A stretch of DNA of 64,000 nt from a virus, in the IMG/VR virus record IMGVR_UViG_3300037760_000114, positions 40,085 through 104,084 of that record; one strand, written 5' to 3'. This document shows positions 16,811 through 55,083 of this stretch, in pieces. How positions within the stretch are numbered: position 1 is the first letter of the stretch; every line of letters starts with the position of its first letter. Below the pieces are notes generated by a model that was given only the letters and a program-made list of their open reading frames with translations, did no database searches and had not been told where the DNA came from. The position numbers and the translations under genes are program-made.

Positions 16811-18104
16811 CGGGACTCTCCCTCGGTGGTGGTGGTTTCGATGTCGCGCATCAAGCGGGCTACGGCGGCGGCGTGCTGCTCGGGGATGCCGTACCGGCGA
16901 CAAGCGGCCAGCGCCGCCCGCTGGCTCAGGTCATGCAGCTCGGCGGCTGCATCGGTGGCAGCCCGGTCCGCCGCGACGGCTCCCGGCTTCGGCCAGCCGG
17001 GGCAGCCGAACTCGCCCCACGAGGTGCGCAGAGTGTGGCGGGCGTGTGGCCGCTTGTCCACGCAGGTGCCTAGGTGCGGGTCACGCTGGTAGTGCTGGCT
17101 CATCGGGTGCTCCCCTCGGTGGTGGTAGATCCGCTGCGGCGGTACGGGCGGCGGCCCGTACGCAGCCACTCCAGCAGCGGCTCCGCCAGGTCAATGACGT
17201 GGTTGGCGACACCATGCGGGGTTCCGGACACGTCGCCGATGATGTAGGCGGCGGTGTTCAGCGCCGACTCGCGGAGCTGCTGCTCGCGGGTGGCGTCGTT
17301 GTCGGCTTCGGCGATGGTGCGCAGGGCGCGTTGCTCCTCGATGAGCATTTGGGTTGGACTCAGGCGGTCGGACATGGTCACTCCTCGGTGGTGGTAGTGG
17401 CGCCGCATCCGCAGCGGTGGTACCGGTCGTCATGCGGCGGACGCACACAGGAGTGATCACGCCAGCCAGCGGGGTTGTGGGAGCTGGTCCACTCGTGGCC
17501 GCAGTGGCTCATCGGGTCACTCCGTCCCGATCGCGTCGTGGAACATGGCCGCGGTCGGGATCGCAGCCGCCAGCCACACTGCGCCGACAATCAGCGACGC
17601 TGTCTCATGGCCAGCGATCACCAGTCCGAGCGCCACCGCCCAACCTGTGACGGCCACCACGACCAGCACTGCGCCAGCCGCCTCGGCAACCCACTGCCGC
17701 ACTCCCCGGCTCATCGCCGCACCGCCTGAGCCACGAACCGGATCACAGCTCCAGCGGCCAGGCAGATCAGAACCAGCGGCCAATACCCGACCGGCGGCAC
17801 CGACGCAGACAGCTCGTGATGCAGCACCCCCATCGCCAGCATCACCAGCCAGCCCACCAGCAGACTCGACAGCACGGATATCAGGGCAGCCACGACCATC
17901 AGGCGGGCGACCTCAAGCATTGATCCCCCGCTGCTCATCGCTGCCCCTGCTCGGTCGCCTCGTCGGGTAGCCCGCACAGGTTCCGGTGATGCTCACGCAC
18001 CACCCGACGCTCGGCCGCTGTGAACTCCTGCGTGAACACGGTCTGCGGCCAGCCGACAGGGCAACGGCACTCAACAGCCGGGCTGGTATCCCGACCGGTG
18101 GCGG

Positions 18105-28120: not shown

Positions 28121-30944
28121 CGCCAGCCTCCTTGCCGCGTAGCCGCTCCAGCTCGATCGGGTCGAACGTCCGCCCGTGGCATTCGCAGCGGCCGGTGGCG
28201 AGCCGGATGGTGTGCCCGCCCGCCTCCTCTGTCTCCTCACCGGAGAGCCACAGCCGTTGCACCGGACGGGGTCGCCACTGGAGCGCCCCGTCGTCGGTGC
28301 ACGTAAGCACGTGGCACACCTCGTGCCATGTCACCGGGTCGGCCTCGTCACCGATCAGCAGCCACCAGCGCCACGGGTCGTCCGGTTCCAGGCTGTCGCC
28401 ACGGCGGTACACCTGCTCGTCGGGCACCTCACCGGCGAGCACGTAGGCGCCGTTGGGTGGCTCCGGCAGCAGCGTCGGGTCAGCCACGGTCGCTCACCGC
28501 CTCGGCGTGCCGGCGTGCTTCGGCGGTCTCCCTGGCGGTGTAGTACTCCGACAGCTTGCGCGGTGTCCACGTGCACTCCCCGTCGTCGGCGACGAACACA
28601 CCACCCGGAGGCCCCTCGTAACAGGCCCACAGCTCGTCATCCAGCTCGAACAGCGCCGGTGGGATCAGGCGGTGGGTGAAGCCTTGGCCGGCGGCCGGTG
28701 TGGTCGAGTGGCGGGGCAGCCCGTGCTCGGTGAGGGCGTGCCGCAGGTCCGGCGGCTGGTGGTCGGCCAGCCACGCCCGCGCAGTGTCGCCGGGCTTGCC
28801 CCGGCGTGGCTCCAGCCGGCCGCGCACGATCCGCCAGCTCTCCGGGATCACCCCGGAGCCGTCCGGCTCCAAGGCAACAAGCCGGTCCGGCCTTCCCCAC
28901 ATTCCGGTCCGCACGAGCGGACCCTTGTTCCCGCCCAGCGCCGCACAGTCCACACGCAGGCGGGGCAGGAACTCGGTCATCGCTGCCCGGGTCTGCCGGT
29001 AGACGGCCACGATCGCGGGGTCGTTGGTGGAGTATGCGTACTGCTCAGTCATCGCCAGACCCCTTGACCTCGAACCGGATCACGATCTCGTCGTCGCCGG
29101 GGAAGAACCGCAGCGCGTCGTCGCTCAACGCGGCTTCCTGCGACAGCCCGTGGACCTGCCGGAACTCGCGGGCCGCGACCTGCATCGCCTTGTCGACCTC
29201 GGCCCAGCAGGCACCCCACAGGCCATCGCAGGGCACCGTGTATTCGATGTGGCGGGTGGTGTACTCCCGACGGCTGTACGTGGCCATCAGCGTTTCGCCC
29301 CCTGCTCGCAGTCGCAGCCCGCCTGCTCGTGCCCGTCCTTGAACCGCTGCCAGAACTCGTCATCGAGCGTGGCGCGTGTCGCCAGCCGGGCGGTCACCCC
29401 TTCCCGCTGCCGTGCCTGCCGGTCGCGGGCACGTGGGTGCATCTCCCGCCACGCCGCCTCTTCGGTGGCGTAAACGTCCCGTGTCGTCGAGCCGGGCACC
29501 TGTGCGGCCATCAGCCCGTACGGATGCCCGCACCGGTAGGCGATCACCCACGTGCAGTCCGCGAGCGGCACCATCTGGCCATCCACGTTCGCGTACAGGT
29601 CAGCCACGGCGGTCACCACCCAGCAGCCGACGCAGATCCTCCAGCGACTCGACCTGGACCGACTCCATCAACGGGGCCGGAGCCGACCGGACGTGCTCCG
29701 CGTAGGCGCGTAGCCCGGTGGCAAGTTCAGAGCCGGACTCGGTGCCCTCCAGCGCGGCGACCACCTGCCGGTGGATCGCCCCCAACGCCGACGCCTGGTG
29801 GCTGCCCAGCGGCCGGATCTCCAGGTCGTCACCGTGCGGGTTGTCGTCCCATCCGGTGATGACCACCGGGCCGGCGTACGGCTGCTGACTCGCCCCCAGC
29901 CTGGCCAGAACACAGGCCCCGACCGGGTTCCGGGCGTAGAGGTCCGGCGCCAGCAGCCCGCAGTCGTTCACGAAGCCGGACAGCACCGGGTATCCGAGCT
30001 TCACCCTTGCCCACCCTTCCGGCCCGACAGCGGTGTTGATCCGCTCCAGCGTCGGCGTCTCCTGGTGGTGCGTCAGCGCGCCGTCGGCGGCGATCACGAC
30101 GTAGCCGGCCATCAGTGCCGCCCCTGCCAAGTCTCGCCGTCTGGCCACACGATCTGCGGTACGTCTTTCACTACCCGGTACTGGCCTTCCTTGCTGACGA
30201 CTCGCAGCCGCCACAGGTCCCCAACGTCTTCGCCTTCGCCCTGCAGATAACCCGAGCACTGGTGCCCGCCCGGTGAGCAGTACCGTGACACCAACTCGGC
30301 AACCTCGACCTCGATGTCGTATGCCTTGAAGGGGTCTTCCGAGATCGCCACGATGCCGACCACGGACCGCTTAGTCAGAGTGCCCTCGTCGGTTTCTACG
30401 GTGTCCTCTTCGACCCGCAGCCGGACGCATTTGCCGCTGCCCTCGGGCCAGCCCTTCAGGTACTCGTCGCCCTTGACGACACCCCAAGAGATCTCCGGGT
30501 TGAAAGCAATCTCGCCGGTGACGTGCGTGTTGTAGCCCATCAGCCGCTCGCCTTCTCAAACTCCGACGTGTGCATCCAGTCGTCGCCCAGCCCGCCCGGG
30601 TCCTTGAACCGGAACGTCTCCGGCCCGAACGAGCACTCCGGACCCTCATCACAGGTGCCGATCTCCAGCACCTCCACCACGAACGGCACCCCGGGCATCT
30701 GCACCCGATCGCCGATCTCGAACTTGGTCATGTCAGTTCTCGCTTCCGTTGTCGTTGCCATCTGTCCACGCCGGGTCATGGGTGTAGGAGTTGCAGCGGT
30801 CTGGCTGCCCGCACTGGCACATCTGGCCCGGCGCGTGCTTCGGGCAACCGGGATGCGGGTAGGCGATCTCGGCGGACGGGACACCCACGTCGGAGCCGGT
30901 CAGGCACATCCCGTCACACTCAGCCGTGGCGGGCATCGGCTCGC

Positions 30945-39811: not shown

Positions 39812-42310
39812 TCACGCCACCGCCGCGAGGTCGAACAACGTTGGCATCGCCAGCTCAGCCTCGGCGGCCTGGAGATACTTAACCCCGTCGAGGAAGTAGC
39901 CCGGGTTCAACTCCACAGACCGCCCCTGCCGACCCAGCTTCAGTGCCCGAACCGGCACCGTGAACAGCCCGCCGAACGGGTCGTAAACCAGGTCTCCCTC
40001 GTTGCTGTACCGGCGGATCAGCCGGTCCACAATGTCGAACTGCAACGGACATACATGCATCGCCTGCGCCCGGCGTGACTGCTCCGTGTTGAGGGTCAGC
40101 ATCCGGTTGATGTCGTGCCACACGTCGGGGTGATGCGATCCCGGAGCGAGTGCCATGAACGTGGCCGGCAGCGCCCCACGACCCTCCAAGGCCTCGCCGA
40201 TGCGGACGTGCGCCTCGTAGTCGTAGACCTGCCGCAAGGTCTGCTCGGTGAACAGCCGGGACATCTGGTCGTGTGGCAGCGTGGCCAACTCTTCCGGTGT
40301 CAGGTGTCGCTCACCCGAGGAGCGCCAGAAGGCGTGCGCGTCGACCTGCCACCGAGAGCGGGTGTACTCCTGCTTCGACTTCGCCACCGGCACATCGGCG
40401 TAGCCCTTGGTCCGATCGGTCTGCGGCTTGTGGAACAGCAGGATGTACTCGGGTGAGCCGGCGCCCATCTTGGTTGCGTCCTTGCACTGCTCCGACCAGC
40501 CCAGCCGATACGTCTGGTTGTTCTCCCTAACCACATCGGTAACGACCGTGATCATGCCCATGTAGTCGAAGCCGTGCTTACGACTATGGGCGATCGCCTC
40601 CGCGTGGAACGGCGATACCGTAGGCACTCCAGCGCCGGTCACGTTGCCGAACAGGATGCGGTCCTTGACGTGGCAGCAGTAGATGCGCCCCGGTCGTAGC
40701 ACCCGCAGCAGCTCGGGCGTCAGATAGTCCATCTGAGTCCAGAAGTGCTGGTTGTCGTCGGTGTGCCCGAAGTCCTCGTACTGCGGGGTGTACTCGTAGT
40801 GGTTGGCGAACGGGATCGACGTGACGATCAAGTCGACCGATTCGCTGTCCATCGCCTGCGTCTCAATCACGCAGTCGTTGTTGGCGACCAGCCACCCCGC
40901 GCCGGACGCTTCGATGCGCTCCACGCCGATCGAGCGGGTCAGCGCCTCGGTGATGCCCCGCTGATCAAGCCCGTACTCACGGATGACCTCGGTCATCTTC
41001 GTCGTCAACTCCTCATGCTGTGCCCACTTGCGGCGCAGGGTCCGCACCACTTCCCGCTCGGACTCGGCGTGGATGATGTCGATGCGCACCCGCTCCGTCT
41101 GTAGAAACCTGTGGATGCGGTGGACGGCCTGTACGAAGTCGTTGAACGAGTACGTGACCCCGACGAAGATCGCCCGGTGGCAGTGCCGTTGGAAGTTGCA
41201 GCCGGACCCGGACAGCTCGGGCTTGGTGGCCAGCAGGCGACTTTCTCCGTCAGAGAAGTCGATGATCCGCTGCTCTCGGAGGTCAAGGTCCAGCGAGCCG
41301 TACACCTCAACCGCTTCCGGCAAAGCGCGCTTGATCGCGCGGCGCTCATCCTCCAGGTCGTGCCACAGGATGAAGTGGTCACCTGGTGAGGCGTTGACGA
41401 TCTCGGCCGCCTTCGCGACCCGCGCGTCCAACGTGCTCCGCTTCTCCCGCGCCGCGTCGATCACGCCCAGAGCGGCGCCCCGGAACAGGTGGCCCTGACC
41501 GTCGCGGTCCACCGGTGATTCTGAGTGGTCCACCGGGATCTCGTGGTAGATCACCTCGATCTCCGGCAGGTCATAGCCTGTGTCGTCGTACCCGAGGTCG
41601 GAGGGCTTCTGTAGGAACACCGCCCAGGTGTTCAGCCACAGCCAGAACTCCCGTTCCTTATGCGGGTACAGGGTCAGGTGATTGGCCTTCGTGGAGTCGC
41701 GCTGGAAGAACCGCGTCAAGGCTTGTCCGGTGTCCATCACGCCCAGGTAGCCGGCGTAGTGGATCAGCTCCTTGTGCCGGTTCGGCGACGGGGTTGCGGT
41801 GGCCACGAAGCGGTACTTCACCGCGTCGAACAGCGTCAGGAACGTCTGGTAGGTCTTCGATCCGAACGACCGCAGCACCGACGCCTCGTCGAGGCTCACG
41901 GCGTCGAACAGTGCCGGGTCCAGCCGGCCGTCCCGCACCGACTCGTAGTTGGTCAGGTAGATGCCCGGCCCGTCAACGTCACGGTCCCACCGAACGAACG
42001 TCACCTGCGTGCCGAGCATCCCGGCATCACGGGCGAACTCCTGCCGCACCCCCAACGGGCACACGATCAGGGCCTTGCCGCCGATCCGCGCCAGAATCAG
42101 GCGCATGATCTCCAGTTGAATCACCGATTTGCCGAGACCGAACGCGGCAAAGACTGCCCGCCGGCCGCCCCGGATCGCCCATTGGACAATGGCACGCTGG
42201 TGCGGCTTGAGGATCGGGTGAACGTCACCAGCCGCCACGGCGAAGCCGAACGTCTGGCTGAAGTCGACCTTGGCAGCCAGGAACTCGGCGTAGCTGGTGG
42301 TGACGCTCAT
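39812..42310 (-). CDS. SNF2-like helicase fused to an amino-DNA methyltransferase (beta class)
   Basis: GLGKS, LDEAS, TATPSPN, SGCNFQ, QAVHRIHRF; then VTSIPF (motif IV) and DPFGG (motif I). Confidence 0.88.
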   Translation of the reverse strand: MSVTTSYAEFLAAKVDFSQTFGFAVAAGDVHPILKPHQRAIVQWAIRGGRRAVFAAFGLGKSVIQLEIMRLILARIGGKALIVCPLGVRQEFARDAGMLGTQVTFVRWDRDVDGPGIYLTNYESVRDGRLDPALFDAVSLDEASVLRSFGSKTYQTFLTLFDAVKYRFVATATPSPNRHKELIHYAGYLGVMDTGQALTRFFQRDSTKANHLTLYPHKEREFWLWLNTWAVFLQKPSDLGYDDTGYDLPEIEVIYHEIPVDHSESPVDRDGQGHLFRGAALGVIDAAREKRSTLDARVAKAAEIVNASPGDHFILWHDLEDERRAIKRALPEAVEVYGSLDLDLREQRIIDFSDGESRLLATKPELSGSGCNFQRHCHRAIFVGVTYSFNDFVQAVHRIHRFLQTERVRIDIIHAESEREVVRTLRRKWAQHEELTTKMTEVIREYGLDQRGITEALTRSIGVERIEASGAGWLVANNDCVIETQAMDSESVDLIVTSIPFANHYEYTPQYEDFGHTDDNQHFWTQMDYLTPELLRVLRPGRIYCCHVKDRILFGNVTGAGVPTVSPFHAEAIAHSRKHGFDYMGMITVVTDVVRENNQTYRLGWSEQCKDATKMGAGSPEYILLFHKPQTDRTKGYADVPVAKSKQEYTRSRWQVDAHAFWRSSGERHLTPEELATLPHDQMSRLFTEQTLRQVYDYEAHVRIGEALEGRGALPATFMALAPGSHHPDVWHDINRMLTLNTEQSRRAQAMHVCPLQFDIVDRLIRRYSNEGDLVYDPFGGLFTVPVRALKLGRQGRSVELNPGYFLDGVKYLQAAEAELAMPTLFDLAAVA

Positions 42311-43715
42311 GACGCCGCCCCTGCTAGCCGTCGCCACGTGGTTTCCGAGCCGGCCCACCGCAGGTAGCACCCGTACGGGTCGCCGCAGCGGTTCCCACAC
42401 GGGCACGGCACCGGCGGGCACCAGGGGCAGCCGGGGATAGGTACCCGGTGCGTCATCCCTCGGGCGTGGGCGTCCGGCTCCGGTGCCTCCCGTAGCTGGT
42501 CGACAGCCGCCGGGGTGCTCACGTCAGCCACCTCCAAAGGGCGGCGATGGCGCCTGCGCAGCACAGGCCGAACAGCACCATGCAGCCGGTGCCTGCGACG
42601 GCGGCACCGAGGGACCGATCCCGTACGTCGTCGCGGCTCACGACTCGGCCCGCCGCTGCTCGATCAGCTGCCGCCACGCGGCGGTCAGCTCGTCGTACTC
42701 CTCATCGGCGCTGCGGGTAGACGCGTTGAACCCGAGCCCTTCCGCAGTCCACTGGCCAGGGACTCGACGGCCAAGGTCGTCCAGCGCTTCGTAGTAGTCG
42801 CCGTGCAGCTGGCCCAGGATGCAGTGGCACGTGGCTTCCAGGTTGAGCCGGTCGAGGTCGATGCGGTCAACCCAGCCGGGCTGATGCTGGTCGAGCCAGG
42901 CGGCCCCGGCGTTGACCCGCTCGGCGATGCTCGCGGCGCTCACCGGTCGACCTTGGGGTGGATCCAGGCGTCGTCGTCCGGCAGTGGGTCCGGCTGGGTG
43001 CGTGCGGCCAGCGACGCCACCCGTACGGCGATGTCGCGCGGGTCCGGGTCAGGACGGGCAGCCAGCTCCGCCAACTGCCGCCGGTAGTGGTCGAGGACGG
43101 CCGGCTTGTCTATCATGGATGCCATCGGAATCACTCCTGTCTATGGGGTTCCGGTCAAAATCGCGGCCGGGTGGTGAACACACCTGGCCGCGTCCACGTC
43201 TGGGGGCCGGGTGGTGTGCCCAGGGGGGAAAGGCGCACCACCCGGCCGCCTGTGGTGGTGCCCGACCCGCCCCCGTGACGGGCCGGACACCACAGCCGTC
43301 CGCGCACACACCCCACCCCCATGCGGTGGGCGCTGGACGACGTTGCCCCGGCCGGGGGTGGTCAGGTGTGGGCTAACCCCACCCGGCCGGAAGTTGGTGG
43401 CACCCGCGCCACGCGGCCCCGGTGCGGGCGCGGGTGCCATGCCGCCGGGCACCAAAGAGGTGGGTGCGCACACAGCGGCAGCCGGCCGGCTGCGAACGGG
43501 CAGCGGCCGGAGCATGGAAAGGGTCCAGTGGACAGCCAGCAACCCGACGGCGGCGGCCAGCTTCAGTACCGCACCGGAGTCCACCGGCCACCAGCGCATC
43601 GCACCCAGCAGGGCGGCACCGGCCAGGACCGCGCCGAGTCCGCCGAGCAGCACGGCGACGGTGGCGGTACTGGGGCGCCACGTGGGGTCGAACGCCCACA
43701 CAGCCAGACGGCGGA

Positions 43716-47934: not shown

Positions 47935-48822
47935 GTGGACCCGAACGACATGCACCTCGCCTCCTACCGCCGGCACCTGCGGGCCAAGAACCGCAGCCCC
48001 ACCACCATCGACGACTACCGCGACGCCCTGACCCGCCTGGCCGCCCACTACAACGGCGCCGACCTGGCCGGGCTCGACAACCGGCAGATCGGCGACTACC
48101 TCGGCTGGATGCTCGACTCCGGGCTCGCCGGCACCACCGTCGGAGTCCACTACCGGTCGCTGCGGGCCTTCTTCAACTGGGCGGTACGGGAGGAGATCAT
48201 CGACCGGTCACCGATGCGGGGTATGGAGCATCCCAAGACGACCGACAAGCCGCCGGAGGTGGTGCCCGATGACGAGATCCGGGCGCTGCTGAAGACGTGC
48301 GCCGGGGCCACCTTTGAGGCCCGCCGCGACAATGCGATCATCCGCCTGTGGTGTGAACCCGGCTCGCCTAGGGTTTCGGAGATGGCCGGGCTCGACCTTG
48401 GCGATCTCGACCTGAAACATGATCAGATCACGGTGCGGGGCAAGGGCGACAAGATCCGCACCGTGCCGTTCGGCGCCAGGACCGGCCAGGCCATCGACCG
48501 GTACCTGCGGGTCCGGGCCAAGCACCGCAGCGCCAAGCGGGACGAGTTGTGGCTCGGCAACCTTGGCGTGGGTCTGACCGCCTCGGGTCTGACGCAGATG
48601 CTGCGGCGCCGGTGCAAACGGGCCAGTGTGCCACACATGCATCCGCATCAGCTGCGGCACACCGCCGCCCACGCCTGGGCCGACGCCGGCGGCTCCGACC
48701 AGGACGCCATGCAGCTGTTCGGGTGGACCTCGCCGGAGATGCCCCGCCTGTACGGGCGGTCGGCCGGTGCCGAGCGGGCACGCCGTGCGGCTCGGCGTGC
48801 CTCGCTCGGCGACCGGTTCTAA
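47935..48822 (+). CDS. int: Tyrosine integrase/recombinase
   Basis: PRVSE, KGDK, HPHQLRHT, GW, Y; adjacent to the immunity region. Confidence 0.9.
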   Translation: MDPNDMHLASYRRHLRAKNRSPTTIDDYRDALTRLAAHYNGADLAGLDNRQIGDYLGWMLDSGLAGTTVGVHYRSLRAFFNWAVREEIIDRSPMRGMEHPKTTDKPPEVVPDDEIRALLKTCAGATFEARRDNAIIRLWCEPGSPRVSEMAGLDLGDLDLKHDQITVRGKGDKIRTVPFGARTGQAIDRYLRVRAKHRSAKRDELWLGNLGVGLTASGLTQMLRRRCKRASVPHMHPHQLRHTAAHAWADAGGSDQDAMQLFGWTSPEMPRLYGRSAGAERARRAARRASLGDRF

Positions 48823-49824: not shown

Positions 49825-51024
49825 TCATCCCTTGACGCACACGACCTGCTTGAGGTGCGCTACCACCTCGACCAGGTCCCGCTGCTCGGCCATCACCTGA
49901 CCCAGGTCCTTGTACGCGGCGGGGATCTCGTCGACGACCCCGGCGTCCTTGCGGCACTCCACCCCGGCGGTCTGCTCGGCGAGGTCCTCCAGGGTGAAGC
50001 TGCGCTTGGCCTGACCGCGAGACATCCTGCGGCCAGCACCGTGCGACGCCGAGTTGTAGGCGTCCGGGTTACCCAACCCACGGACGACGTACGAGCCGGT
50101 GCCCATGCTGCCCGGGATGATCCCCAGCTCTCCGACGCCCGCCCGGATCGCACCCTTGCGGGTCACCAGCAGCTCTACACCGCCGTACGTCTCCTCGGCC
50201 ACGTAGTTGTGGTGGCATGAGATCGGCTCGTCGAAGCTGACCTGCGGCAGGTGGTCACGGACCACGCCGCAGAGCAGGGCCAGCATGACCGCCCGGTTGC
50301 GGGCGGCGAACTCCTGCGCCCACGCGAGGTCACGCCGGTAGGCGTCCATCTCCGGGGTGCCGGCGACGAACACGGCCAAGTCCCGGTCCGGCAGGTCGGC
50401 GTTGTGCGGTAGCCCGCGGGCTACCGTGATGTGGCGCTCGGCAAGCTCCTTGCCGATGTTGCGGGAGCCGGAGTGCAGCATCAGCCACACCCGGCCCGCA
50501 TCCGGCCCGCCCTGCTCGACGCAAAGTTCCGCAAAGTGGTTGCCGCCGCCAAGTGTTCCCATCTGGTGCTCGGCCCGACCCCGGAGCTTGCCCACATCGG
50601 CGCGCAGTTCGCCGAACCGGGACCAGAACCCCACCCAGCCCTTGCCGTCGAGGCCGGGCACACGACGCGGGTCGACAGCCGACTCATGCGACTGGAACCC
50701 GACCGGGATCGCCTCCTCGATCGCCGCCCGTAGCCGGCCGAGGTCGTCCGGCAGGTCGCTGTCCGTCAGCGAGGTACGGACGCAGCTCATGCCGCAGCCG
50801 ATGTCCACTCCGACCGCGGCCGGGGCCAACGCCTGCCGCATGGCGATCACCGACCCCACCGTCGCCCCCTTGCCGAAGTGCACATCGGGCATCACGGCGA
50901 CACCCTCCACCCACGGCAGGTTGCCGATGTTGCGTAGCTGCTGCTGAGCCTGCGGCTCGATGCCGGCGGGGTCGGTCCACACCCGTACGGGTGCGCGGGT
51001 GCCGGGCAGGGTGGTGTGGGGCAT
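49825..51024 (-). CDS. rtcB: RtcB RNA ligase
   Basis: MPDVHFGKG, VGVDIGCGM, GTLGGGNHF, LHSGSR, HHNY, RKGA, PGSMG, SHGAGR, DE.P.AYK; RBS GAAGGAG. Confidence 0.97.
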   Translation of the reverse strand: MPHTTLPGTRAPVRVWTDPAGIEPQAQQQLRNIGNLPWVEGVAVMPDVHFGKGATVGSVIAMRQALAPAAVGVDIGCGMSCVRTSLTDSDLPDDLGRLRAAIEEAIPVGFQSHESAVDPRRVPGLDGKGWVGFWSRFGELRADVGKLRGRAEHQMGTLGGGNHFAELCVEQGGPDAGRVWLMLHSGSRNIGKELAERHITVARGLPHNADLPDRDLAVFVAGTPEMDAYRRDLAWAQEFAARNRAVMLALLCGVVRDHLPQVSFDEPISCHHNYVAEETYGGVELLVTRKGAIRAGVGELGIIPGSMGTGSYVVRGLGNPDAYNSASHGAGRRMSRGQAKRSFTLEDLAEQTAGVECRKDAGVVDEIPAAYKDLGQVMAEQRDLVEVVAHLKQVVCVKG

Positions 51025-51148
51025 GGCAGTGCTCCTTCGGTCGTCTGCCAAGAGTCGCTGGTCTGAGTGTCGATCTCAGCGAGCCCGGGGTTATGAGTCC
51101 CGGGTGGGCACCGGCCCACCAGCGTGGTCCACACAGTGGATGGCATCG

Positions 51149-51219
51149 AGATCGCGGCCGGACTCGAACCGGCGTCTACCGCTTTGCAGGCGGTCCCCTG
51201 ACCACTCGGGCACGCGATC
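51149..51219 (-). tRNA. tRNA-Cys(GCA)
   Basis: Cloverleaf read by hand. Confidence 0.88.
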
Positions 51220-51224
51220 TTGTG

Positions 51225-51297
51225 TGTCCCCGGCTGGGTTCGAACCAGCGACCTCGGCCTTCGGAGGGCCGCGCGCTTCCGGCTGCGCCACGAGGAC
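51225..51297 (-). tRNA. tRNA-Arg(CCG)
   Basis: Cloverleaf read by hand. Confidence 0.88.
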
Positions 51298-51298
51298 A

Positions 51299-51385
51299 TG
51301 GTGCGGGTAGAGAGATTCGAACTCCCTGAGCGCATGCGCACCGGGGTTACAGCCCGGCTCACCTCACCATCGGTGACGTACCCGC
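51299..51385 (-). tRNA. tRNA-Tyr(GTA)
   Basis: Long variable arm; encoded CCA. Confidence 0.85.
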
Positions 51386-51386
51386 T

Positions 51387-51460
51387 TGGGGTGACTGGCC
51401 GGAGTTGAACCGGCATGTCCAGGGCCACAACCTGGCGCTCTACCATTGAGCTACAGCCAC
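51387..51460 (-). tRNA. tRNA-His(GTG)
   Basis: Cloverleaf; encoded CCA. Confidence 0.88.
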
Positions 51461-51462
51461 AG

Positions 51463-51534
51463 TGCCCGGTGGAGGTGTCGAACCTCCGGCCTTCTGCTTG
51501 TAAGGCAGACGCTCTCCCGTTGAGCTAACCGGGC
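51463..51534 (-). tRNA. tRNA-Val(TAC)
   Basis: Cloverleaf read by hand. Confidence 0.88.
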
Positions 51535-51539
51535 ATGGG

Positions 51540-51613
51540 TGCGCCGCCTGGGGATCGAACCCAGCGCGGCCAGTTGATAAGACTGGTCTCACCGACCAGG
51601 TGAGCTGCGGCGC
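51540..51613 (-). tRNA. tRNA-Ile(TAT)
   Basis: Anticodon arm CCAGT-CTTATCA-ACTGG. Confidence 0.72.
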
Positions 51614-51616
51614 ATC

Positions 51617-51700
51617 TGGCGGAGGGGGCGGGATTCGAACCCGCGAGGGTGTGACCCCTACGCCGCTTCCAACGGCGTTCCCGTGACCGCCGGCCCCTCC
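51617..51700 (-). tRNA. tRNA-Ser(GGA)
   Basis: Long variable arm; CCA. Confidence 0.82.
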
Positions 51701-51701
51701 A

Positions 51702-51775
51702 TGGCTCTCCCGGCTGGACTCGAACCAACATCGGCGGAGTAACAATCCGCTGTCCTACCATTGAACGACGGGAGA
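51702..51775 (-). tRNA. tRNA-Asn(GTT)
   Basis: Cloverleaf; CCA. Confidence 0.88.
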
Positions 51776-51779
51776 TCGG

Positions 51780-51853
51780 TAGCGCCGACGGGGCTCGAAC
51801 CCGCACCGTCTGGATTGAAAGTCCAGGGACCTGACCGATTAGTCTACGGCGCC
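51780..51853 (-). tRNA. tRNA-Glu(TTC)
   Basis: Cloverleaf read by hand. Confidence 0.88.
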
Positions 51854-51858
51854 TTGCG

Positions 51859-51932
51859 TGTTCCGACCTGGGTTCGAACCAGGGGCCTCCACCGTGTCGA
51901 GGTGGTGCTCTACCGGGCTGAGCTACCGGAAC
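51859..51932 (-). tRNA. tRNA-Val(GAC)
   Basis: Cloverleaf read by hand. Confidence 0.85.
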
Positions 51933-51933
51933 G

Positions 51934-52007
51934 TAGCGGGTGCCGGAATCGAACCGACCTGTCTCGGGTTATGAGCCCGTTGAGCACAACCAGTGCTCCT
52001 ACCCGCA
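51934..52007 (-). tRNA. tRNA-Met(CAT), initiator-like
   Basis: Three G-C pairs at the base of the anticodon stem; unpaired 1:72. Confidence 0.8.
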
Positions 52008-52008
52008 G

Positions 52009-52080
52009 TGCGCCGCCGAGGAATCGAACCCCGGACACTCCGCTTAAAAGGCGGCAGCTCTACCACTGAGCTAGCGGCGC
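52009..52080 (-). tRNA. tRNA-Lys(TTT)
   Basis: Cloverleaf read by hand. Confidence 0.88.
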
Positions 52081-52085
52081 ATGAG

Positions 52086-52244
52086 CGGCGGTGGAGTAGG
52101 CGTGTGGCGACGCCTCGTTCTTAAGCCGCAGACCAAGCGCCGTTCTCCGCCTCGCCTTCTTAGGGGCGACACATCACCCAGCTCCGGTCCTGCCAGCACG
52201 TTTAGGAGACCTGCCCTGGTACCCGGTTGCGGCCTCCACCGCCG
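52086..52244 (-). ncRNA. Unidentified ~160-nt structured RNA within the tRNA array
   Basis: 11-bp terminal stem CGGCGGTGGAG/CTCCACCGCCG; inner GCCGCA/TGCGGC helix and hairpins. Confidence 0.55.
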
Positions 52245-52246
52245 AG

Positions 52247-52318
52247 CCTCCCGCCCCCGATTCGAACGGGGACACCCGCTGTAGGAGAGCGGTGCTCTGT
52301 CCGTTGAGCTAGCGGGAG
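52247..52318 (-). tRNA. tRNA-Arg(CCT)
   Basis: Cloverleaf read by hand. Confidence 0.85.
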
Positions 52319-52319
52319 A

Positions 52320-52392
52320 TGGTGCGGCGCCCGAGAGTTGAACTCGGCCCGCTGGCCTTAGAAGGGCCGGCTGCGCATCCGGCGCGCGCCGC
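52320..52392 (-). tRNA. tRNA-Arg(TCT), short D arm
   Basis: Loop CTTCTAA; CCA. Confidence 0.75.
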
Positions 52393-52395
52393 ATG

Positions 52396-52469
52396 TGGTA
52401 CGCCGTGAAGGAATCGAACCTTCGTCCTCGGGGTAAGAGCCCGGAGCTAAACCACTCAGCTAACGGCGC
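52396..52469 (-). tRNA. tRNA-Lys(CTT)
   Basis: Cloverleaf; CCA. Confidence 0.85.
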
Positions 52470-52470
52470 G

Positions 52471-52554
52471 TGGAGGAGGGTAAGGGAGTCGAACTCTCGG
52501 GTGTCACCCCGGCACGGTTTTCGGGACCGCTTTGCCACCATGGCGCTACCCTCC
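52471..52554 (-). tRNA. tRNA-Ser(CGA)
   Basis: Long variable arm; CCA. Confidence 0.8.
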
Positions 52555-52559
52555 ATGAG

Positions 52560-52633
52560 TCGGGTGCGGGCGATTTGAACGCCCGGCCTCCGCGTCCCGA
52601 ACGCGGCGCTCCACCTAGCTGAGCTAGCACCCG
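52560..52633 (-). tRNA. tRNA-Pro(CGG)
   Basis: Cloverleaf read by hand. Confidence 0.88.
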
Positions 52634-52638
52634 TTGCG

Positions 52639-52712
52639 TACCCCCGACAGGACTCGAACCTGCCGCCTCCTGGTTCGTAGCCAGGTGCTCTATCCAGATG
52701 AGCTACGGGGGC
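52639..52712 (-). tRNA. tRNA-Arg(ACG)
   Basis: Cloverleaf read by hand. Confidence 0.9.
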
Positions 52713-52713
52713 A

Positions 52714-52789
52714 TGGTGGGCCACCCAGGAGTTGAACCTGGCGATGCCGACATATCAGATCGGTCTCGTCACCGGCTGAGTCGTGACCC
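52714..52789 (-). tRNA. tRNA-Ile(GAT)
   Basis: Cloverleaf; CCA. Confidence 0.8.
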
Positions 52790-52790
52790 G

Positions 52791-52872
52791 TGGTGGACCA
52801 TCCCGGAGTCGAACCGGGTTCCGCTGCCGTACCGTCATGCGGTCTTCGGCAGCGTCGAAACCTTCATGGCCC
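52791..52872 (-). ncRNA. Mini-tmRNA-like RNA (tRNA-like domain only)
   Basis: G3-U70 pair, A73, CCA; no D stem but GGTTTCGAC; helix GCTGCCG/CGGCAGC; T-arm TTCGACT. Confidence 0.7.
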
Positions 52873-52876
52873 TCGG

Positions 52877-52961
52877 CGGACAGTGAGGGATTCGAACCCC
52901 CGGTGGTTTCCCACTCCGCGCTAGCAACGCGGCGCCTTAAGCCGGGCTCGGCCAACTGTCC
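52877..52961 (-). tRNA. tRNA-Ser(GCT)
   Basis: Long variable arm. Confidence 0.87.
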
Positions 52962-53063
52962 TTGGGCGTTCGGCCTCTCCTACGACCCCCAACGGGATCG
53001 CGCACCCACATGGGGCTGCGATTGCAGCGCCTATCCCATAGCCGAACTAGTGGGTCCCTAGCG

Positions 53064-53137
53064 CGCCTCGTACGGGACTCGAACCCGTGCATCTCCTCCT
53101 TGACAGGGAGGCGTCCACTCCACTGGACCGACGAGGC
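53064..53137 (-). tRNA. tRNA-Asp(GTC)
   Basis: Cloverleaf read by hand. Confidence 0.88.
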
Positions 53138-53142
53138 ATACG

Positions 53143-53216
53143 TACCCGGGACACGATTCGAACGTGCACTGTGCTGGTTCTAAGCCAGCCGCCTCCTGCC
53201 GTTGGGCTACCCGGGC
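53143..53216 (-). tRNA. tRNA-Leu(TAG), short variable region
   Basis: Loop CTTAGAA. Confidence 0.82.
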
Positions 53217-53217
53217 A

Positions 53218-53293
53218 TGGTGGAGAAGAGCGGACTCGAACCGCTTGCCTCCGCTTTGCAAGAGCGGCGCTCTACCTGATGAGCTACATCCCC
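53218..53293 (-). tRNA. tRNA-Ala(TGC)
   Basis: G3-U70; CCA. Confidence 0.88.
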
Positions 53294-53294
53294 G

Positions 53295-53370
53295 TGGAGC
53301 CGGTGACGCGGATCGAACGCGCTCCCTCCTGCGTACGAAGCAGGCGCACTACCTTCAGTGCTTCACCGGC
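53295..53370 (-). tRNA. tRNA-Thr(CGT)
   Basis: Cloverleaf; CCA. Confidence 0.85.
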
Positions 53371-53371
53371 A

Positions 53372-53505
53372 GGGTAGGCCGCCCGGACTTGAACCGGGCA
53401 TCTCCCGCTGCCCGCCCTCTGGCGGGACTCGCCCGGTGCTCCATCGGGTTCCCTAGGCTCCGATGGTCTTAGGCGGCAGGCGACTTGCCGTTAGTCGATT
53501 GGCCC
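53372..53505 (-). ncRNA. tRNA-like RNA with a large structured insertion replacing the anticodon loop
   Basis: D arm CGACTAACGGCAAGTCG; T arm CCCGG-TTCAAGT-CCGGG; insert contains a CCATCGG/CCGATGG hairpin. Confidence 0.6.
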
Positions 53506-53510
53506 ACGTA

Positions 53511-53579
53511 AGCCGGCGGCGCGAGTCGAACGCGCGGCTGCCGCCTTACAAGGGCGGTGCACCACCGTGGCTCGCCGGC
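53511..53579 (-). tRNA. tRNA-Thr(TGT)
   Basis: Cloverleaf with a short D arm. Confidence 0.8.
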
Positions 53580-53583
53580 ATCG

Positions 53584-53656
53584 CTGGGAGCCCAGGATTC
53601 GAACCTGAACCGACGGTTTCAGAGACCGCCGTGCTGCCGGATTACACCAGCTCCCA
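53584..53656 (-). tRNA. tRNA-Gln(CTG)
   Basis: Cloverleaf read by hand. Confidence 0.87.
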
Positions 53657-53691
53657 ATGACCCGGCCGGGCCTAGTCATCCCGGCCGGGGT

Positions 53692-54144
53692 TCAGCGCGA
53701 GGTCACCGACGCCCACGACGGGGCAGCCGGCCTGACCCGCAGCACCATGCCCGCCTCGGCGGGGGTGCGGTCACCCTTGCGCTGGTTGCACGGCCCGCAC
53801 GCGGCGACCGTGTTGCGCCAGGTGTTCCGGCCGCCGCGGGCACGCGGGACGATGTGGTCAACGGTGCTGGCCGTGGCCGGGCAGTAGCCGCAGCGGCGCT
53901 GGTCGCGGGCGAGCACACCAGTCCGGGACCAGGCGGGGCCGGCGGTGTACCGCCACTTCGTGACCACGTAGTTGACCAGCCGCAGCACCCTCGGCACAGG
54001 CCAGACTCCGATGATCCGGTCCGGTTCACCTTCGTGGACCACTGCGACCTGCCGGACGAGCATCCGGATCGCGTGCCGGAAGGACACCCGGTGCAGCGGG
54101 CCAAGATCAGCGTTCAAGACGAGTACGGCGTCCACCGGGTTCAC
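53692..54144 (-). CDS. HNH endonuclease embedded in the tRNA array
   Basis: VLVLNA...VLARDQRRCGYC...TVDHIVPRARGGRNTWRNTVAACGPCNQRKG. Confidence 0.92.
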   Translation of the reverse strand: MNPVDAVLVLNADLGPLHRVSFRHAIRMLVRQVAVVHEGEPDRIIGVWPVPRVLRLVNYVVTKWRYTAGPAWSRTGVLARDQRRCGYCPATASTVDHIVPRARGGRNTWRNTVAACGPCNQRKGDRTPAEAGMVLRVRPAAPSWASVTSR

Positions 54145-54163
54145 CTCCTGTCGTGGTGGGCGC

Positions 54164-54237
54164 TGGAGCGGCTACGGGGAATCGAACCCCGGTCTGCTGC
54201 ATGGCAAGCAGCCGCACTGCCGTTGTGCTACAGCCGC
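54164..54237 (-). tRNA. tRNA-Gly(GCC)
   Basis: Cloverleaf; CCA. Confidence 0.88.
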
Positions 54238-54242
54238 ATGAG

Positions 54243-54316
54243 AGCCATCGGCGCGATTCGAACGCGCGGCCTTCCGCTTACCGGGCGGACGCTCTAACCA
54301 CCTGAGCTACGACGGC
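54243..54316 (-). tRNA. tRNA-Thr(GGT)
   Basis: Cloverleaf read by hand. Confidence 0.87.
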
Positions 54317-54317
54317 G

Positions 54318-54394
54318 TGGTACTCCGGGTGCGATTCGAACGCACACTGTGCGCGGTTTGAACGCGCCGCCTCCTGCCGTTGGGCTACCGGAGC
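54318..54394 (-). tRNA. tRNA-Leu(CAA), short variable region
   Basis: Loop TTCAAAC; CCA. Confidence 0.82.
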
Positions 54395-54399
54395 ACGAG

Positions 54400-54470
54400 C
54401 TGAGGGCGGAGGATTCGAACCCCCACAGCTGGGACCAAAACCCAGCGACCTGCCGTTAGTCGAGCCCTCA
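54400..54470 (-). tRNA. tRNA-Gln(TTG)
   Basis: Cloverleaf read by hand. Confidence 0.85.
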
Positions 54471-54475
54471 ACGAG

Positions 54476-54547
54476 AGCGAGCGGCGGGAGTCGAACCCGC
54501 TACGTCTGTTTGGAAGACAGAAGTGTCACCACCAACACCTCGCTCGC
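54476..54547 (-). tRNA. tRNA-Gly(TCC)
   Basis: Cloverleaf read by hand. Confidence 0.85.
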
Positions 54548-54552
54548 ATGAG

Positions 54553-54626
54553 TAGGCCGTACGGGGCTCGAACCCGTAACCTCTGCGCTGAGAACGCAGT
54601 GAGCTGCCAGCTTGCTCCAACGGCCC
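54553..54626 (-). tRNA. tRNA-Glu(CTC)
   Basis: Cloverleaf read by hand. Confidence 0.85.
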
Positions 54627-54692
54627 AAGGGCGCCGGGCAGGGTGTGTACCCCTGCGCTGTCCGGACACTGCATCAGCACTTCCGGCGCCAG

Positions 54693-54765
54693 TGCTCGTG
54701 GCCGGGATCGAACCGGCGGCCTCCGGGACTTCACGCCGGCGCTCAACCTGCTGAGCTTCACGAGC
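54693..54765 (-). tRNA. tRNA-Phe(GAA), atypical anticodon arm
   Basis: Loop GTGAAGT; 31:39 mismatch. Confidence 0.7.
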
Positions 54766-54766
54766 A

Positions 54767-54841
54767 TGGTGGACCACAAGGGGATCGAACCCTTCACAGA
54801 GTGTCTGCCAGACGCTCCCGCACACCAGTGACGTGCGGCCC
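54767..54841 (-). tRNA. tRNA-Ala(GGC)
   Basis: G3-U70; CCA; weak D stem. Confidence 0.75.
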
Positions 54842-54846
54842 ATGAG

Positions 54847-54919
54847 TCGGGAACCGGGGAGTCGAACCCCGCACTTCCTGCTCCCAAGGCAGGCCCGGTC
54901 ACCGCGCCGGTCGCCCCCG
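54847..54919 (-). tRNA. tRNA-Pro(TGG)
   Basis: Cloverleaf read by hand. Confidence 0.8.
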
Positions 54920-55008
54920 ATGCCCCGGCGCGACGATGCGCGCCGGGTCTCATGCCATCCACTGTGCAGATATCAACTTCCGATCCCACCGGCCGTAGCC
55001 GGGAGAAG

Positions 55009-55083
55009 CAGGGGCGACAGGATTCGAACCTGCGGCTTGCGGGTTTGGAGTCCGCTGCTCTGACCGTGCTGAGCTACACCCCT
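55009..55083 (-). tRNA. tRNA-Trp(CCA)
   Basis: Cloverleaf read by hand; first gene of the array. Confidence 0.9.

What the first reader, a model, noticed from the sequence alone, without database searches (positions are those of the whole stretch)
52791..52872. 82-nt mini-tmRNA: tRNA-like domain with no mRNA-like domain
Seen (minus strand): GGGCCAT-GAAGGTTTCGAC-GCTGCCG-AAGACCGCATGACGGTA-CGGCAGC-GGAA-CCCGG-TTCGACT-CCGGG-ATGGTCC-A-CCA. Established: the tmRNA tRNA-like domain has a G3-U70/A73 alanine identity, no D stem, a GG(A/T)TTCGAC 5' motif, helix 2 and a short linker to the T arm, and it binds SmpB. Here helix 2 is capped by only 17 nt, leaving no tag ORF and no pseudoknots. Inference: it may be an alanylated SmpB-binding RNA that rescues ribosomes without tagging, or a decoy that sequesters SmpB. 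A tRNA scanner might mis-call it because of the CAT in the cap hairpin.
Basis: partly seen in the sequence, partly recalled or inferred. Interest (0 to 1): 0.8.

Follow-up and report, generated by a model that had tools for sequence, protein, structure and literature searches.

The report
Phage tag-less mini-tmRNA in tRNA array
This uncultivated phage carries a real 82-base gene for only the alanine-accepting, tRNA-like end of the bacterial ribosome-rescue RNA (tmRNA); one such RNA was already described in mycobacteriophage DS6A, so this is a new member of a little-studied but widespread phage family that probably interferes with, or replaces, the host's rescue-and-tagging system.

Summary
Window 52791-52872 (minus strand) folds as described: a 7-bp acceptor stem with G3:U70, A73 and CCA; no D stem; a GGTTTCGAC motif; a 7-8 bp helix 2 capped by 17 nt; a GGAA linker; and a T arm.

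The Rfam tmRNA model aligns it end to end at 46.4 bits (cut-off 47). The tRNA model and ARAGORN give nothing.

It is not unique. A model built from relatives scores the published DS6A 'TLD only' tmRNA, which was not in the seed, at 58 bits. Across 74 distinct sequences, G1:C72, G2:C71, G3:U70 and A73 never vary, while the other stem pairs covary strongly.

The same scan of cellular genomes gave almost only chance hits. None of 50 scanned records from the motif scan, nor this phage, encodes SmpB. This phage and 10 (near-)complete carrier genomes have no full-length tmRNA.

Here the gene sits in a 33-tRNA array directly upstream of an RtcB RNA ligase.

Best reading: a DS6A-type tag-less tmRNA, charged with alanine and used with host SmpB. 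Charging, binding and effect remain untested. This scan has reported the same family before on other DNA.

The parts
52791..52872 (-). Whole mini-tmRNA gene (82 nt including the encoded CCA)
   Evidence: Sequence; fold; RF00023 46.4 bits over model 1-374; family model R1 81.8 bits
52866..52872 (-). Acceptor stem, 5' strand GGGCCAU (G1, G2, G3)
   Evidence: Pairs with 52795-52801. G1:C72, G2:C71 and G3:U70 are invariant in 74/74 distinct family members; pairs 4-7 covary
52854..52865 (-). D-loop analogue GAAGGUUUCGAC, with no D stem
   Evidence: Unpaired in the MFE fold; aligns to the GGaUUCGAC block of the Rfam tmRNA consensus in the relative LuckySocke. GGTTTCGAC was fixed by the scan, so its invariance is not evidence
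52847..52853 (-). Helix 2 (H2a), 5' strand GCUGCCG
   Evidence: 7 bp with 52823-52829. All 7 variable H2 pairs show double (compensatory) changes across the family
52830..52846 (-). 17-nt cap: A-rich internal loop (AAG / A) plus 4-bp hairpin ACCG-CAUGA-CGGU
   Evidence: Fold. Family consensus is A-A-A-R followed by near-invariant CC...GG. Same layout as the H2a/H2b junction of full-length actinobacterial tmRNAs read (inference)
52823..52829 (-). Helix 2, 3' strand CGGCAGC
52819..52822 (-). Linker GGAA (family consensus GGAC)
   Evidence: Of these four positions, G is invariant at the first, G is 69/74 at the second, A is invariant at the third, and the last is C in 65/74 and A in 6/74
52802..52818 (-). 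T arm CCCGG-UUCGACU-CCGGG
   Evidence: 4 of 5 T-stem pairs covary
52795..52801 (-). Acceptor stem, 3' strand AUGGUCC (U70)
52791..52794 (-). Discriminator A73 and encoded CCA
   Evidence: A73 in 87/88 unique pattern hits; CCA encoded in 23/88; 11 of the 33 neighbouring array tRNAs also encode CCA
51148..55083 (-). Co-oriented array of 33 ARAGORN-called tRNA genes covering all 20 amino acids; the mini-tmRNA lies between tRNA-Ser(gct) and tRNA-Ile(gat)
   Evidence: Spacers are 4 nt after the tRNA-Ser discriminator and 1 nt before tRNA-Ile, like the 1-5 nt spacers elsewhere in the array
49825..51051 (-). RtcB RNA-repair ligase gene directly downstream of the array, same strand (context)
   Evidence: Pfam PF01139, E = 2.8e-122

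Best explanation
It is a functional tag-less ('TLD-only', CDS-less) tmRNA of the type first noted in mycobacteriophage DS6A.

Proposed mechanism, step by step:
1. It is transcribed with the tRNA array and cut out by the host's tRNA-processing enzymes (inferred from the tight spacing).
2. Host alanyl-tRNA synthetase charges it with alanine. This is inferred from the invariant G3:U70, A73, G1:C72 and G2:C71.
3. It binds host SmpB through the conserved D-loop analogue and the GAC / GGA(C) neck of helix 2. This is inferred; the phage has no SmpB of its own.
4. With EF-Tu it enters the empty A site of ribosomes stalled on broken or stop-less mRNA, in competition with host tmRNA (inferred).
5. It has no resume codon or tag frame, so no degradation tag can be added.

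The net effect would be that the host's tagging branch of trans-translation is blocked or bypassed during infection.

Whether the ribosome is then freed (tag-less rescue) or merely occupied is open.

Only the anatomy, the homology, the conservation pattern and the gene context are shown here.
For: Identity:
- RF00023 scores 46.4 bits, E = 1.2e-18, over the whole model with the central region deleted.
- No tRNA-model hit and no ARAGORN call.

Homology to the published case:
- Model R1, built from 38 relatives without DS6A, scores DS6A 28478-28557 at 58.1 bits.
- DS6A has the same architecture, including the inner AAAA-CCG...CGG hairpin.

Family and selection:
- 93 matches at E<=1e-6 among the 100 sources searched.
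- 96.4% of cells are paired, against 67% in shuffles.
- 482 double-change cells, against 156 +/- 10 in shuffles and 72-117 with slid partners.
- G1:C72, G2:C71 and G3:U70 are invariant in 74/74 and A73 in 87/88, while acceptor pairs 4-7 change freely. The acceptor was not part of the search pattern. A wobble pair held fixed amid this much change argues for selection on alanine charging.

Phage specificity:
- The same pattern gives 112/123 hits with a well-paired (>=6 of 7 bp) acceptor stem in viral contigs; 85 of the 88 unique ones have G3:U70 and 87 have A73.
- In cellular genomes only 28 of 120 hits pass the pairing filter and about 3-5 are TLD-like.

Dependence on the host:
- No SmpB in this complete 104-kb genome or in 50 scanned records from the motif scan (most, not all, carrying the mini form).
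- No full-length tmRNA here or in 10 (near-)complete carrier genomes.

Literature: a TLD-only molecule like DS6A's strongly inhibits E. coli tmRNA (PMC4131195 and PMC11915505, citing Mao et al. 2009).

Context: it is embedded 1-4 nt from its neighbours in a 33-tRNA array followed by RtcB.
Against: - There is no expression, charging or binding evidence for this element.
- It scores 0.6 bits below Rfam's tmRNA cut-off and has GGAA where most relatives have GGAC.
[quoted passage not shown] Charging is therefore not needed for the one effect that has been measured, and the ribosome-entry step rests only on conservation.
- The fate of a nascent chain transferred to such an RNA is unknown. The phage encodes no peptidyl-tRNA hydrolase.
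- About 80% of family members are not next to tRNA genes. One lineage has the gene between the prohead protease and major capsid genes. So the 'translation kit' context seen here is not general.
Confidence: 0.62

Rival explanations
1. Pure SmpB decoy. The RNA only soaks up host SmpB, and perhaps AlaRS or EF-Tu, and never needs to act on the ribosome. Trans-translation is simply switched off.
For: The only experimental statement available says a similar molecule inhibits tmRNA whether or not it can be charged, 'perhaps acting by titrating SmpB'. The neck and D-loop-analogue sequences are the most conserved unpaired parts. No carrier phage brings its own SmpB.
Against: A decoy that need not be charged has no obvious reason to keep G3:U70, A73, G1:C72 and G2:C71 invariant across 74 diverged sequences while the rest of the acceptor stem turns over.
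Confidence: 0.2
2. tRNA-like processing signal. The element mainly serves as an RNase P / 3'-trimming site that punctuates a polycistronic transcript. It has no role in ribosome rescue.
For: In one lineage (23 loci) the gene lies in the late operon about 30 nt upstream of the major capsid gene, after the prohead protease. An earlier report of this scan read a smaller anticodon-less element this way (e1-5930242).
Against: In this window it lies among 33 tRNAs that already provide such sites. Processing needs neither the G3:U70 wobble, nor A73, nor the tmRNA-specific GGUUUCGAC and GGA(C) neck, nor the conserved inner hairpin.
Confidence: 0.08
3. Decaying remnant: a tmRNA pseudogene left by an internal deletion, or an attP-type fragment of host ssrA, with no function.
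For: Phages often carry ssrA fragments at attachment sites, and an integrase gene lies about 4 kb away.
Against: Both TLD halves are present and precisely joined. Length is tightly conserved: the mode is 79 nt to the discriminator, as here. Compensatory changes occur in every helix. The element is found in many unrelated phage backbones of 49-75% GC. It is spaced exactly like a tRNA gene in the array.
Confidence: 0.04
4. An odd ordinary tRNA or pseudo-tRNA whose 'CAU' in the cap acts as an anticodon.
For: It lies in a tRNA array. ARAGORN occasionally mis-calls relatives as tRNAs (6 of 110).
Against: No RF00005 hit at E<=10, no ARAGORN call, no D stem, a 5-nt loop on a 4-bp hairpin rather than a 7-nt anticodon loop, and a loop sequence that is not conserved in the family.
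Confidence: 0.02

Closest known systems
Mycobacteriophage DS6A 'TLD only' tmRNA (JN698994 28478-28560; tmRNA Website tmID 11587 / Phage__Mycobacterium.9; Mao et al. 2009 as cited in PMC4131195 and PMC11915505)
   Same: Same length class (83 vs 82 nt) and same order of parts, including the A-rich loop plus CCG...CGG inner hairpin. G3:U70 and A73 are present. There is no tag frame. RF00023 scores 43.2 vs 46.4 bits. It scores 58.1 bits on a model built without it.
   Different: DS6A's copy stands alone between protein genes, upstream of a DNA polymerase III gene, in a 60-kb phage, and has no encoded CCA. This one is inside a 33-tRNA array next to RtcB in a 104-kb, 69.6% GC uncultivated phage and encodes CCA. 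The D-loop analogue differs (GGUGGUCGAC vs GGUUUCGAC).
Canonical one-piece tmRNA (Rfam RF00023), including the full-length tmRNAs of cluster C1 mycobacteriophages such as BeanWater
   Same: The tRNA-like domain, H2a and alanine identity are shared. BeanWater's tmRNA also lies near a tRNA cluster.
   Different: Canonical forms are about 370-440 nt, with pseudoknots, a resume codon and a tag frame (73.5 bits for BeanWater). Here about 300 model positions are replaced by a short hairpin.
CDS-less organellar tmRNAs (jakobid mitochondria; ~65-bp Mallomonadaceae plastid forms)
   Same: They are reduced to little more than the TLD, and the paper argues they still work with SmpB (PMC11915505).
   Different: They are organellar reductive evolution, not a phage gene. 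No direct sequence comparison was made here.
Unannotated copies in cultured Streptomyces phages LuckySocke (OR725497 17977-18057), GiJojo and pSt2308
   Same: Homologous 78-81-nt genes. LuckySocke's lies in a tRNA cluster followed by an RNA ligase gene and scores 57.1 bits on RF00023 (48.6 by cmscan), above the cut-off.
   Different: Acceptor pairs 4-7 differ by compensatory changes (GGGUCUG/CAGAUCC). There is no encoded CCA. The records either lack annotation there or annotate a hypothetical protein over it.

Membership tests
TLD-only (CDS-less) phage tmRNA, DS6A type | 7-bp acceptor stem with G3:U70 wobble and A73 discriminator (alanine identity) | tested here: met
   GGGCCAU/AUGGUCC + A + CCA; invariant across the family
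TLD-only (CDS-less) phage tmRNA, DS6A type | No D stem; D-loop analogue with GGNUUCGAC | tested here: met
   GAAGGUUUCGAC is unpaired in the fold; aligned to the tmRNA consensus in the homologue
TLD-only (CDS-less) phage tmRNA, DS6A type | Helix 2 flanked by GAC and GGAC, then the T arm | tested here: met
   7-8 bp H2 and a T arm with UUCGACU loop. The linker is GGAA, a minority variant (6/74) of GGAC
TLD-only (CDS-less) phage tmRNA, DS6A type | Helix 2 closed by a short cap in place of the pseudoknots and tag frame | tested here: met
   17-nt cap; no conserved GCN-to-stop frame
TLD-only (CDS-less) phage tmRNA, DS6A type | Detectable homology to the published DS6A element | tested here: met
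   R1 (seed includes the window, excludes DS6A) scores DS6A at 58.1 bits, E = 4.5e-14; ordinary tRNAs in the window score <=25.4 bits
TLD-only (CDS-less) phage tmRNA, DS6A type | Charged with alanine; binds SmpB; inhibits host tmRNA | not testable with these tools
   Needs bench assays. Only literature statements about a DS6A-like molecule are available
Canonical tmRNA (Rfam RF00023) | Score at or above the curated gathering cut-off (47 bits) | tested here: not met
   46.4 bits, 0.6 below. Cmscan reported no tmRNA hit on the window. 9 of 10 relatives in complete genomes pass, at 54-76 bits
Canonical tmRNA (Rfam RF00023) | mRNA-like domain: resume codon, tag reading frame with stop, pseudoknots | tested here: not met
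   Only 17 nt lie between the H2 strands. About 300 model positions are deleted. ARAGORN finds no tag peptide
tRNA (Rfam RF00005) | Cloverleaf with D stem and a 7-nt anticodon loop; model score >=29 bits | tested here: not met
   No hit at E<=10; no ARAGORN call; the fold lacks both features

The most novel reading that the evidence does not exclude
The mini-tmRNA is an active, alanine-charged rescue factor rather than a mere inhibitor. Together with the full 20-amino-acid tRNA array and the adjacent RtcB ligase it would form a phage 'translation repair kit'. The kit would free ribosomes stalled by host mRNA- or tRNA-cleaving defences without marking the unfinished, largely phage, proteins for degradation. 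The near-invariant A-rich loop plus CC/GG hairpin would be a specific contact needed for that reaction.
Probability: 0.25. Interest if true: 0.75.

Novelty: new member of a known kind. Interest (0 to 1): 0.45.

Why it matters
Trans-translation is the main ribosome-rescue pathway of bacteria and is pursued as an antibiotic target.

A natural, phage-made RNA that competes with tmRNA for SmpB, AlaRS, EF-Tu and stalled ribosomes would be a ready-made probe and inhibitor of that pathway. It would also show that phages manipulate ribosome rescue.

The papers found here mention only DS6A as a phage case. The data here and in earlier reports of this scan show a large family that ARAGORN missed in 104 of 110 loci and that is unannotated in the cultured-phage records inspected.

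For annotation, unannotated gaps of about 80 nt in phage tRNA arrays should be checked with a dedicated model. For biology, the strict conservation of alanine identity makes 'decoy or tag-less rescuer?' directly testable in cultivable Streptomyces phages.

Tried and rejected
Searches that found nothing or did not run:
- Cmscan of the window at gathering thresholds, and of 271 bases at E<=10, gave no tmRNA or tRNA hit for the element. The tmRNA match appeared only through the whole-genome route.
- Megablast of the array against cultured phages found no relatives. A 554-aa ORF from the genome's left end (function not checked) had no tblastn hit at 1e-10. The host remains unknown. RtcB's best hits are Stenotrophomonas phages and actinophages at 55-60% identity.
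There is therefore no expression evidence, and read laying was not used.
- The primary paper (Mao et al. 2009) is not held in the library. It is cited only through PMC4131195 and PMC11915505.
- The promoter/terminator scan gave nothing above shuffles.
- Blastn of a capsid-operon-lineage member against cultured phages gave no match.
- A tblastn with this phage's RtcB found no RtcB within about 7 kb of the other mini-tmRNAs.

Readings considered and rejected:
- A one-codon tag (GCA-UGA) in the loop: not conserved.
- A phage-encoded SmpB or peptidyl-tRNA hydrolase partner: absent.
- A K-turn reading of the internal loop: by inspection, the G/A order does not fit the consensus.

Full report
WHAT IS THERE

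In order, the parts are:
- a 7-bp acceptor stem, GGGCCAU/AUGGUCC, whose third pair is G:U
- a 12-nt unpaired GAAGGUUUCGAC
- a 7-bp helix, GCUGCCG/CGGCAGC
- a 17-nt cap
- a GGAA linker
- a 5-bp T stem with a UUCGACU loop
- discriminator A and an encoded CCA

ViennaRNA returns this fold as both MFE and centroid: -39.6 kcal/mol, z = -3.24 against dinucleotide shuffles. The fold also shows that the cap is itself structured, as a purine-rich internal loop and a 4-bp hairpin (ACCG/CGGU) with a CAUGA loop.

The window is the right-hand 64 kb of a complete 104,084-bp IMG/VR virus record with direct terminal repeats and 69.6% G+C.

tRNA OR tmRNA?

- Rfam's tmRNA model RF00023 aligns the element from model position 1 to 374 at 46.4 bits, E = 1.2e-18. 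That is 0.6 bits under the curated cut-off of 47. The next hit in the genome is a class II tRNA-Ser at 23.5 bits.
- The tRNA model RF00005 finds 31 places in the genome but not this one, even at E<=10.
- ARAGORN finds 34 tRNAs and no tmRNA in the genome, and does not call this element.

In the homologue from Streptomyces phage LuckySocke the cmscan alignment shows what happens. The two TLD halves and helix 2a align to the consensus, and 304 model positions are replaced by 12 nt.

The element is therefore a tmRNA tRNA-like domain with the mRNA-like domain missing. It is neither a tRNA nor a full tmRNA.

IT IS A MEMBER OF A FAMILY, AND THE KIND IS ALREADY PUBLISHED

Hudson, Lau and Williams (PMC4131195) list 'Mycobacterium phage DS6A (TLD only)'. 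[quoted passage not shown]

The 2025 tmRNA database paper (PMC11915505) still names DS6A as the only phage example of a CDS-less form.

I located the DS6A element at JN698994 28478-28560. It scores 43.2 bits on RF00023 and is unannotated. It has the same order of parts, down to an AAAA-CCG-CACG-CGG inner hairpin.

Blastn with the window element also found unannotated copies in the tRNA cluster of Streptomyces phage LuckySocke and in GiJojo. LuckySocke's scores 57.1 bits on RF00023, above the cut-off. A relative's sequence found one in pSt2308.

SIZE OF THE FAMILY AND SELECTION ON IT

A loose motif, GGTTTCGAC-N20-50-GGTTCGANTCC, constrains neither the acceptor stem nor helix 2.
- Of 123 matches, 112 have at least 6 of 7 acceptor pairs.
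- Among the 88 unique sequences, 85 have G3:U70, 87 have A73, 86 have G1:C72 and 85 have G2:C71.
- The modal length to the discriminator is 79 nt, the same as here.
- Only 23 of 88 encode CCA.

I built a covariance model (R1) from 38 cleanly aligned members.
- The window element, which is in the seed, scores 81.8 bits. Every true tRNA in the window scores 25.4 bits or less.
- DS6A, which is not in the seed, scores 58.1 bits.
- R1 finds 93 matches at E<=1e-6 in 100 sources.

On the model-based alignment of 74 distinct sequences:
- 96.4% of cells are standard pairs, against 67% in shuffles and 39-50% with slid partners.
- 482 cells carry changes on both sides, against 156 +/- 10 in shuffles and 72-117 with slid partners.
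- 17 of 23 pairs show compensatory change.
- The first three acceptor pairs never vary, while pairs 4-7 turn over freely.

That alignment is fitted to the model, which favours the structure. However, RNAalifold on a plain MAFFT alignment gave the same helices, with 15 of 20 pairs covarying.

CONTROL IN CELLULAR GENOMES

Those hits are almost all coding sequence or ordinary tRNAs preceded by the motif. Only about 3-5 of 120 look like TLDs.

The element is therefore characteristic of phages rather than a common bacterial feature picked up by the pattern.

WHAT THE CARRIERS LACK

- No SmpB (PF01668) is found in this genome or in 50 scanned IMG/VR records from the motif scan, most of them mini-tmRNA carriers, 12 of which are at least 90% complete.
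- In 10 carrier genomes that are 96-100% complete by CheckV (32-201 kb), the only tmRNA-model hits are the 66-85-nt mini forms themselves. Nine of the ten are above Rfam's cut-off, with scores up to 76 bits.
- This phage also lacks a peptidyl-tRNA hydrolase.

Any SmpB-dependent activity must therefore use host SmpB, and the mini form is not a companion of a full-length phage tmRNA.

CONTEXT

Here the gene lies in a co-oriented array of 33 ARAGORN-called tRNAs that covers all 20 amino acids. It starts 4 nt after the discriminator of tRNA-Ser(gct) and ends 1 nt before tRNA-Ile(gat). Eleven of the 33 array tRNAs also encode CCA.

An HNH endonuclease gene interrupts the array. An RtcB RNA-repair ligase (E = 2.8e-122) follows it on the same strand. 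LuckySocke shows the same combination of tRNA cluster, mini-tmRNA and RNA ligase.

This is not general, however. Only 19 of 110 IMG/VR copies lie within 300 nt of a tRNA. One lineage of 23 loci has the gene between the prohead protease and major capsid genes. Others lie near helicase or recombinase genes.

THE INNER HAIRPIN

After helix 2 the family consensus is A-A-A-R followed by a near-invariant CC...GG stem and a short variable loop.

I read full-length tmRNAs from Streptomyces, Leucobacter and Amycolatopsis for comparison. They have the same layout at the H2a/H2b junction. An example is GAGA-CCGUG...CACGG-AA in Leucobacter.

I therefore infer that the mini form keeps H2a, the junction loop and the first pairs of H2b. 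Its conservation suggests a specific contact. What it contacts is not known.

MECHANISM

Shown: anatomy, homology, purifying selection on the alanine identity set, phage specificity, and the absence of a phage SmpB or full tmRNA.

From the literature: a DS6A-like TLD-only RNA inhibits E. coli tmRNA.

Inferred: processing from the array transcript; charging by host AlaRS; binding of host SmpB; EF-Tu delivery to stalled ribosomes; acceptance of the nascent chain with no tag added.

From my own knowledge, not checked here: TLD fragments with SmpB and EF-Tu have been used to study the first steps of trans-translation on the ribosome. Entry is therefore plausible.

I favour a charged, ribosome-active competitor over a pure decoy. 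A decoy would not need the invariant G3:U70 and A73. The reported charge-independent inhibition keeps the decoy reading alive.

The processing-signal, pseudogene and odd-tRNA readings are each contradicted by specific results given under the rival explanations.

NOVELTY

The kind is known, both from DS6A and from the CDS-less organellar forms. This element is a new member.

Earlier reports of this scan reached the same conclusion on other DNA, and I confirmed their central claims independently here.

What the literature held here does not yet describe is the size of the family, its strict alanine identity, the conserved junction hairpin, and the tRNA-array/RtcB setting seen in this phage.

Noticed in passing
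window 54769-54842 (-): An uncalled tRNA-like gene in an 80-nt array gap. Its acceptor GGGCCGC/GUGGUCC has G3:U70, A73 and CCA, and its first five pairs are identical to those of the mini-tmRNA. The T arm is normal, but the 'anticodon arm' folds as a closed ~9-bp hairpin with a GGC triloop. It may be a second alanine-identity, non-decoding RNA. It scores 21 bits on the tRNA-Sec model and 16.7 bits on R1. There is no copy in the other loci fetched.
   Followed up: partly
window 52321-52395 (-) and 52475-52554 (-): Two more array gaps fold as cloverleaves that ARAGORN did not call; Rfam gave only one sub-threshold hit (29.9 bits on the tRNA-Sec model for the second). One has anticodon loop CUUCUAA (UCU, Arg), a short D arm and ACCA. 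The other is class-II-like with loop CCCGAAA (CGA, Ser).
   Followed up: partly
window 53371-53510 (-) and 54627-54691 (-): A 140-nt gap folds with an acceptor-like stem, a T arm (GGUUCAAGUCC) and a large internal insertion (z = -2.0). A 65-nt gap folds as an 8-bp stem enclosing two hairpins (z = -2.3). Their nature is unknown.
   Followed up: no
window 49825-51051 (-), 53692-54144 (-), 47935-48822 (+): An RtcB RNA ligase lies directly after the tRNA array, an HNH endonuclease gene is inserted inside the array, and a tyrosine integrase/recombinase gene is nearby.
   Followed up: partly
window 41888-41981 (-): ARAGORN's 94-nt 'tRNA-Arg(acg)' lies inside an 869-aa ORF with a DNA methylase domain (39812-42421) and has no Rfam tRNA hit. 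It is probably a false call.
   Followed up: no
L111:924-1005 with L111:1035-2297; 23 IMG/VR loci: In one phage lineage the mini-tmRNA sits in the late operon between the prohead protease (Peptidase_S78) and HK97-type major capsid genes, about 30 nt upstream of the capsid start and on the same strand.
   Followed up: partly
L023, L050, L077, L079, L084, L116, L130; L049, L069: Size variants of the family. The 62-67-nt forms close helix 2 with a plain tetraloop (for example GCAA) and have no inner hairpin. The 86-93-nt forms have a longer insert.
   Followed up: no
L056:5-81 and L056:1317-1392: One viral contig carries two mini-tmRNA copies about 1.3 kb apart.
   Followed up: no
PP725410 (GiJojo) 17032-17091: In the GenBank record of Streptomyces phage GiJojo a 'hypothetical protein' CDS (gene 44) is annotated over the mini-tmRNA homologue. 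This is probably an annotation artefact.
   Followed up: no
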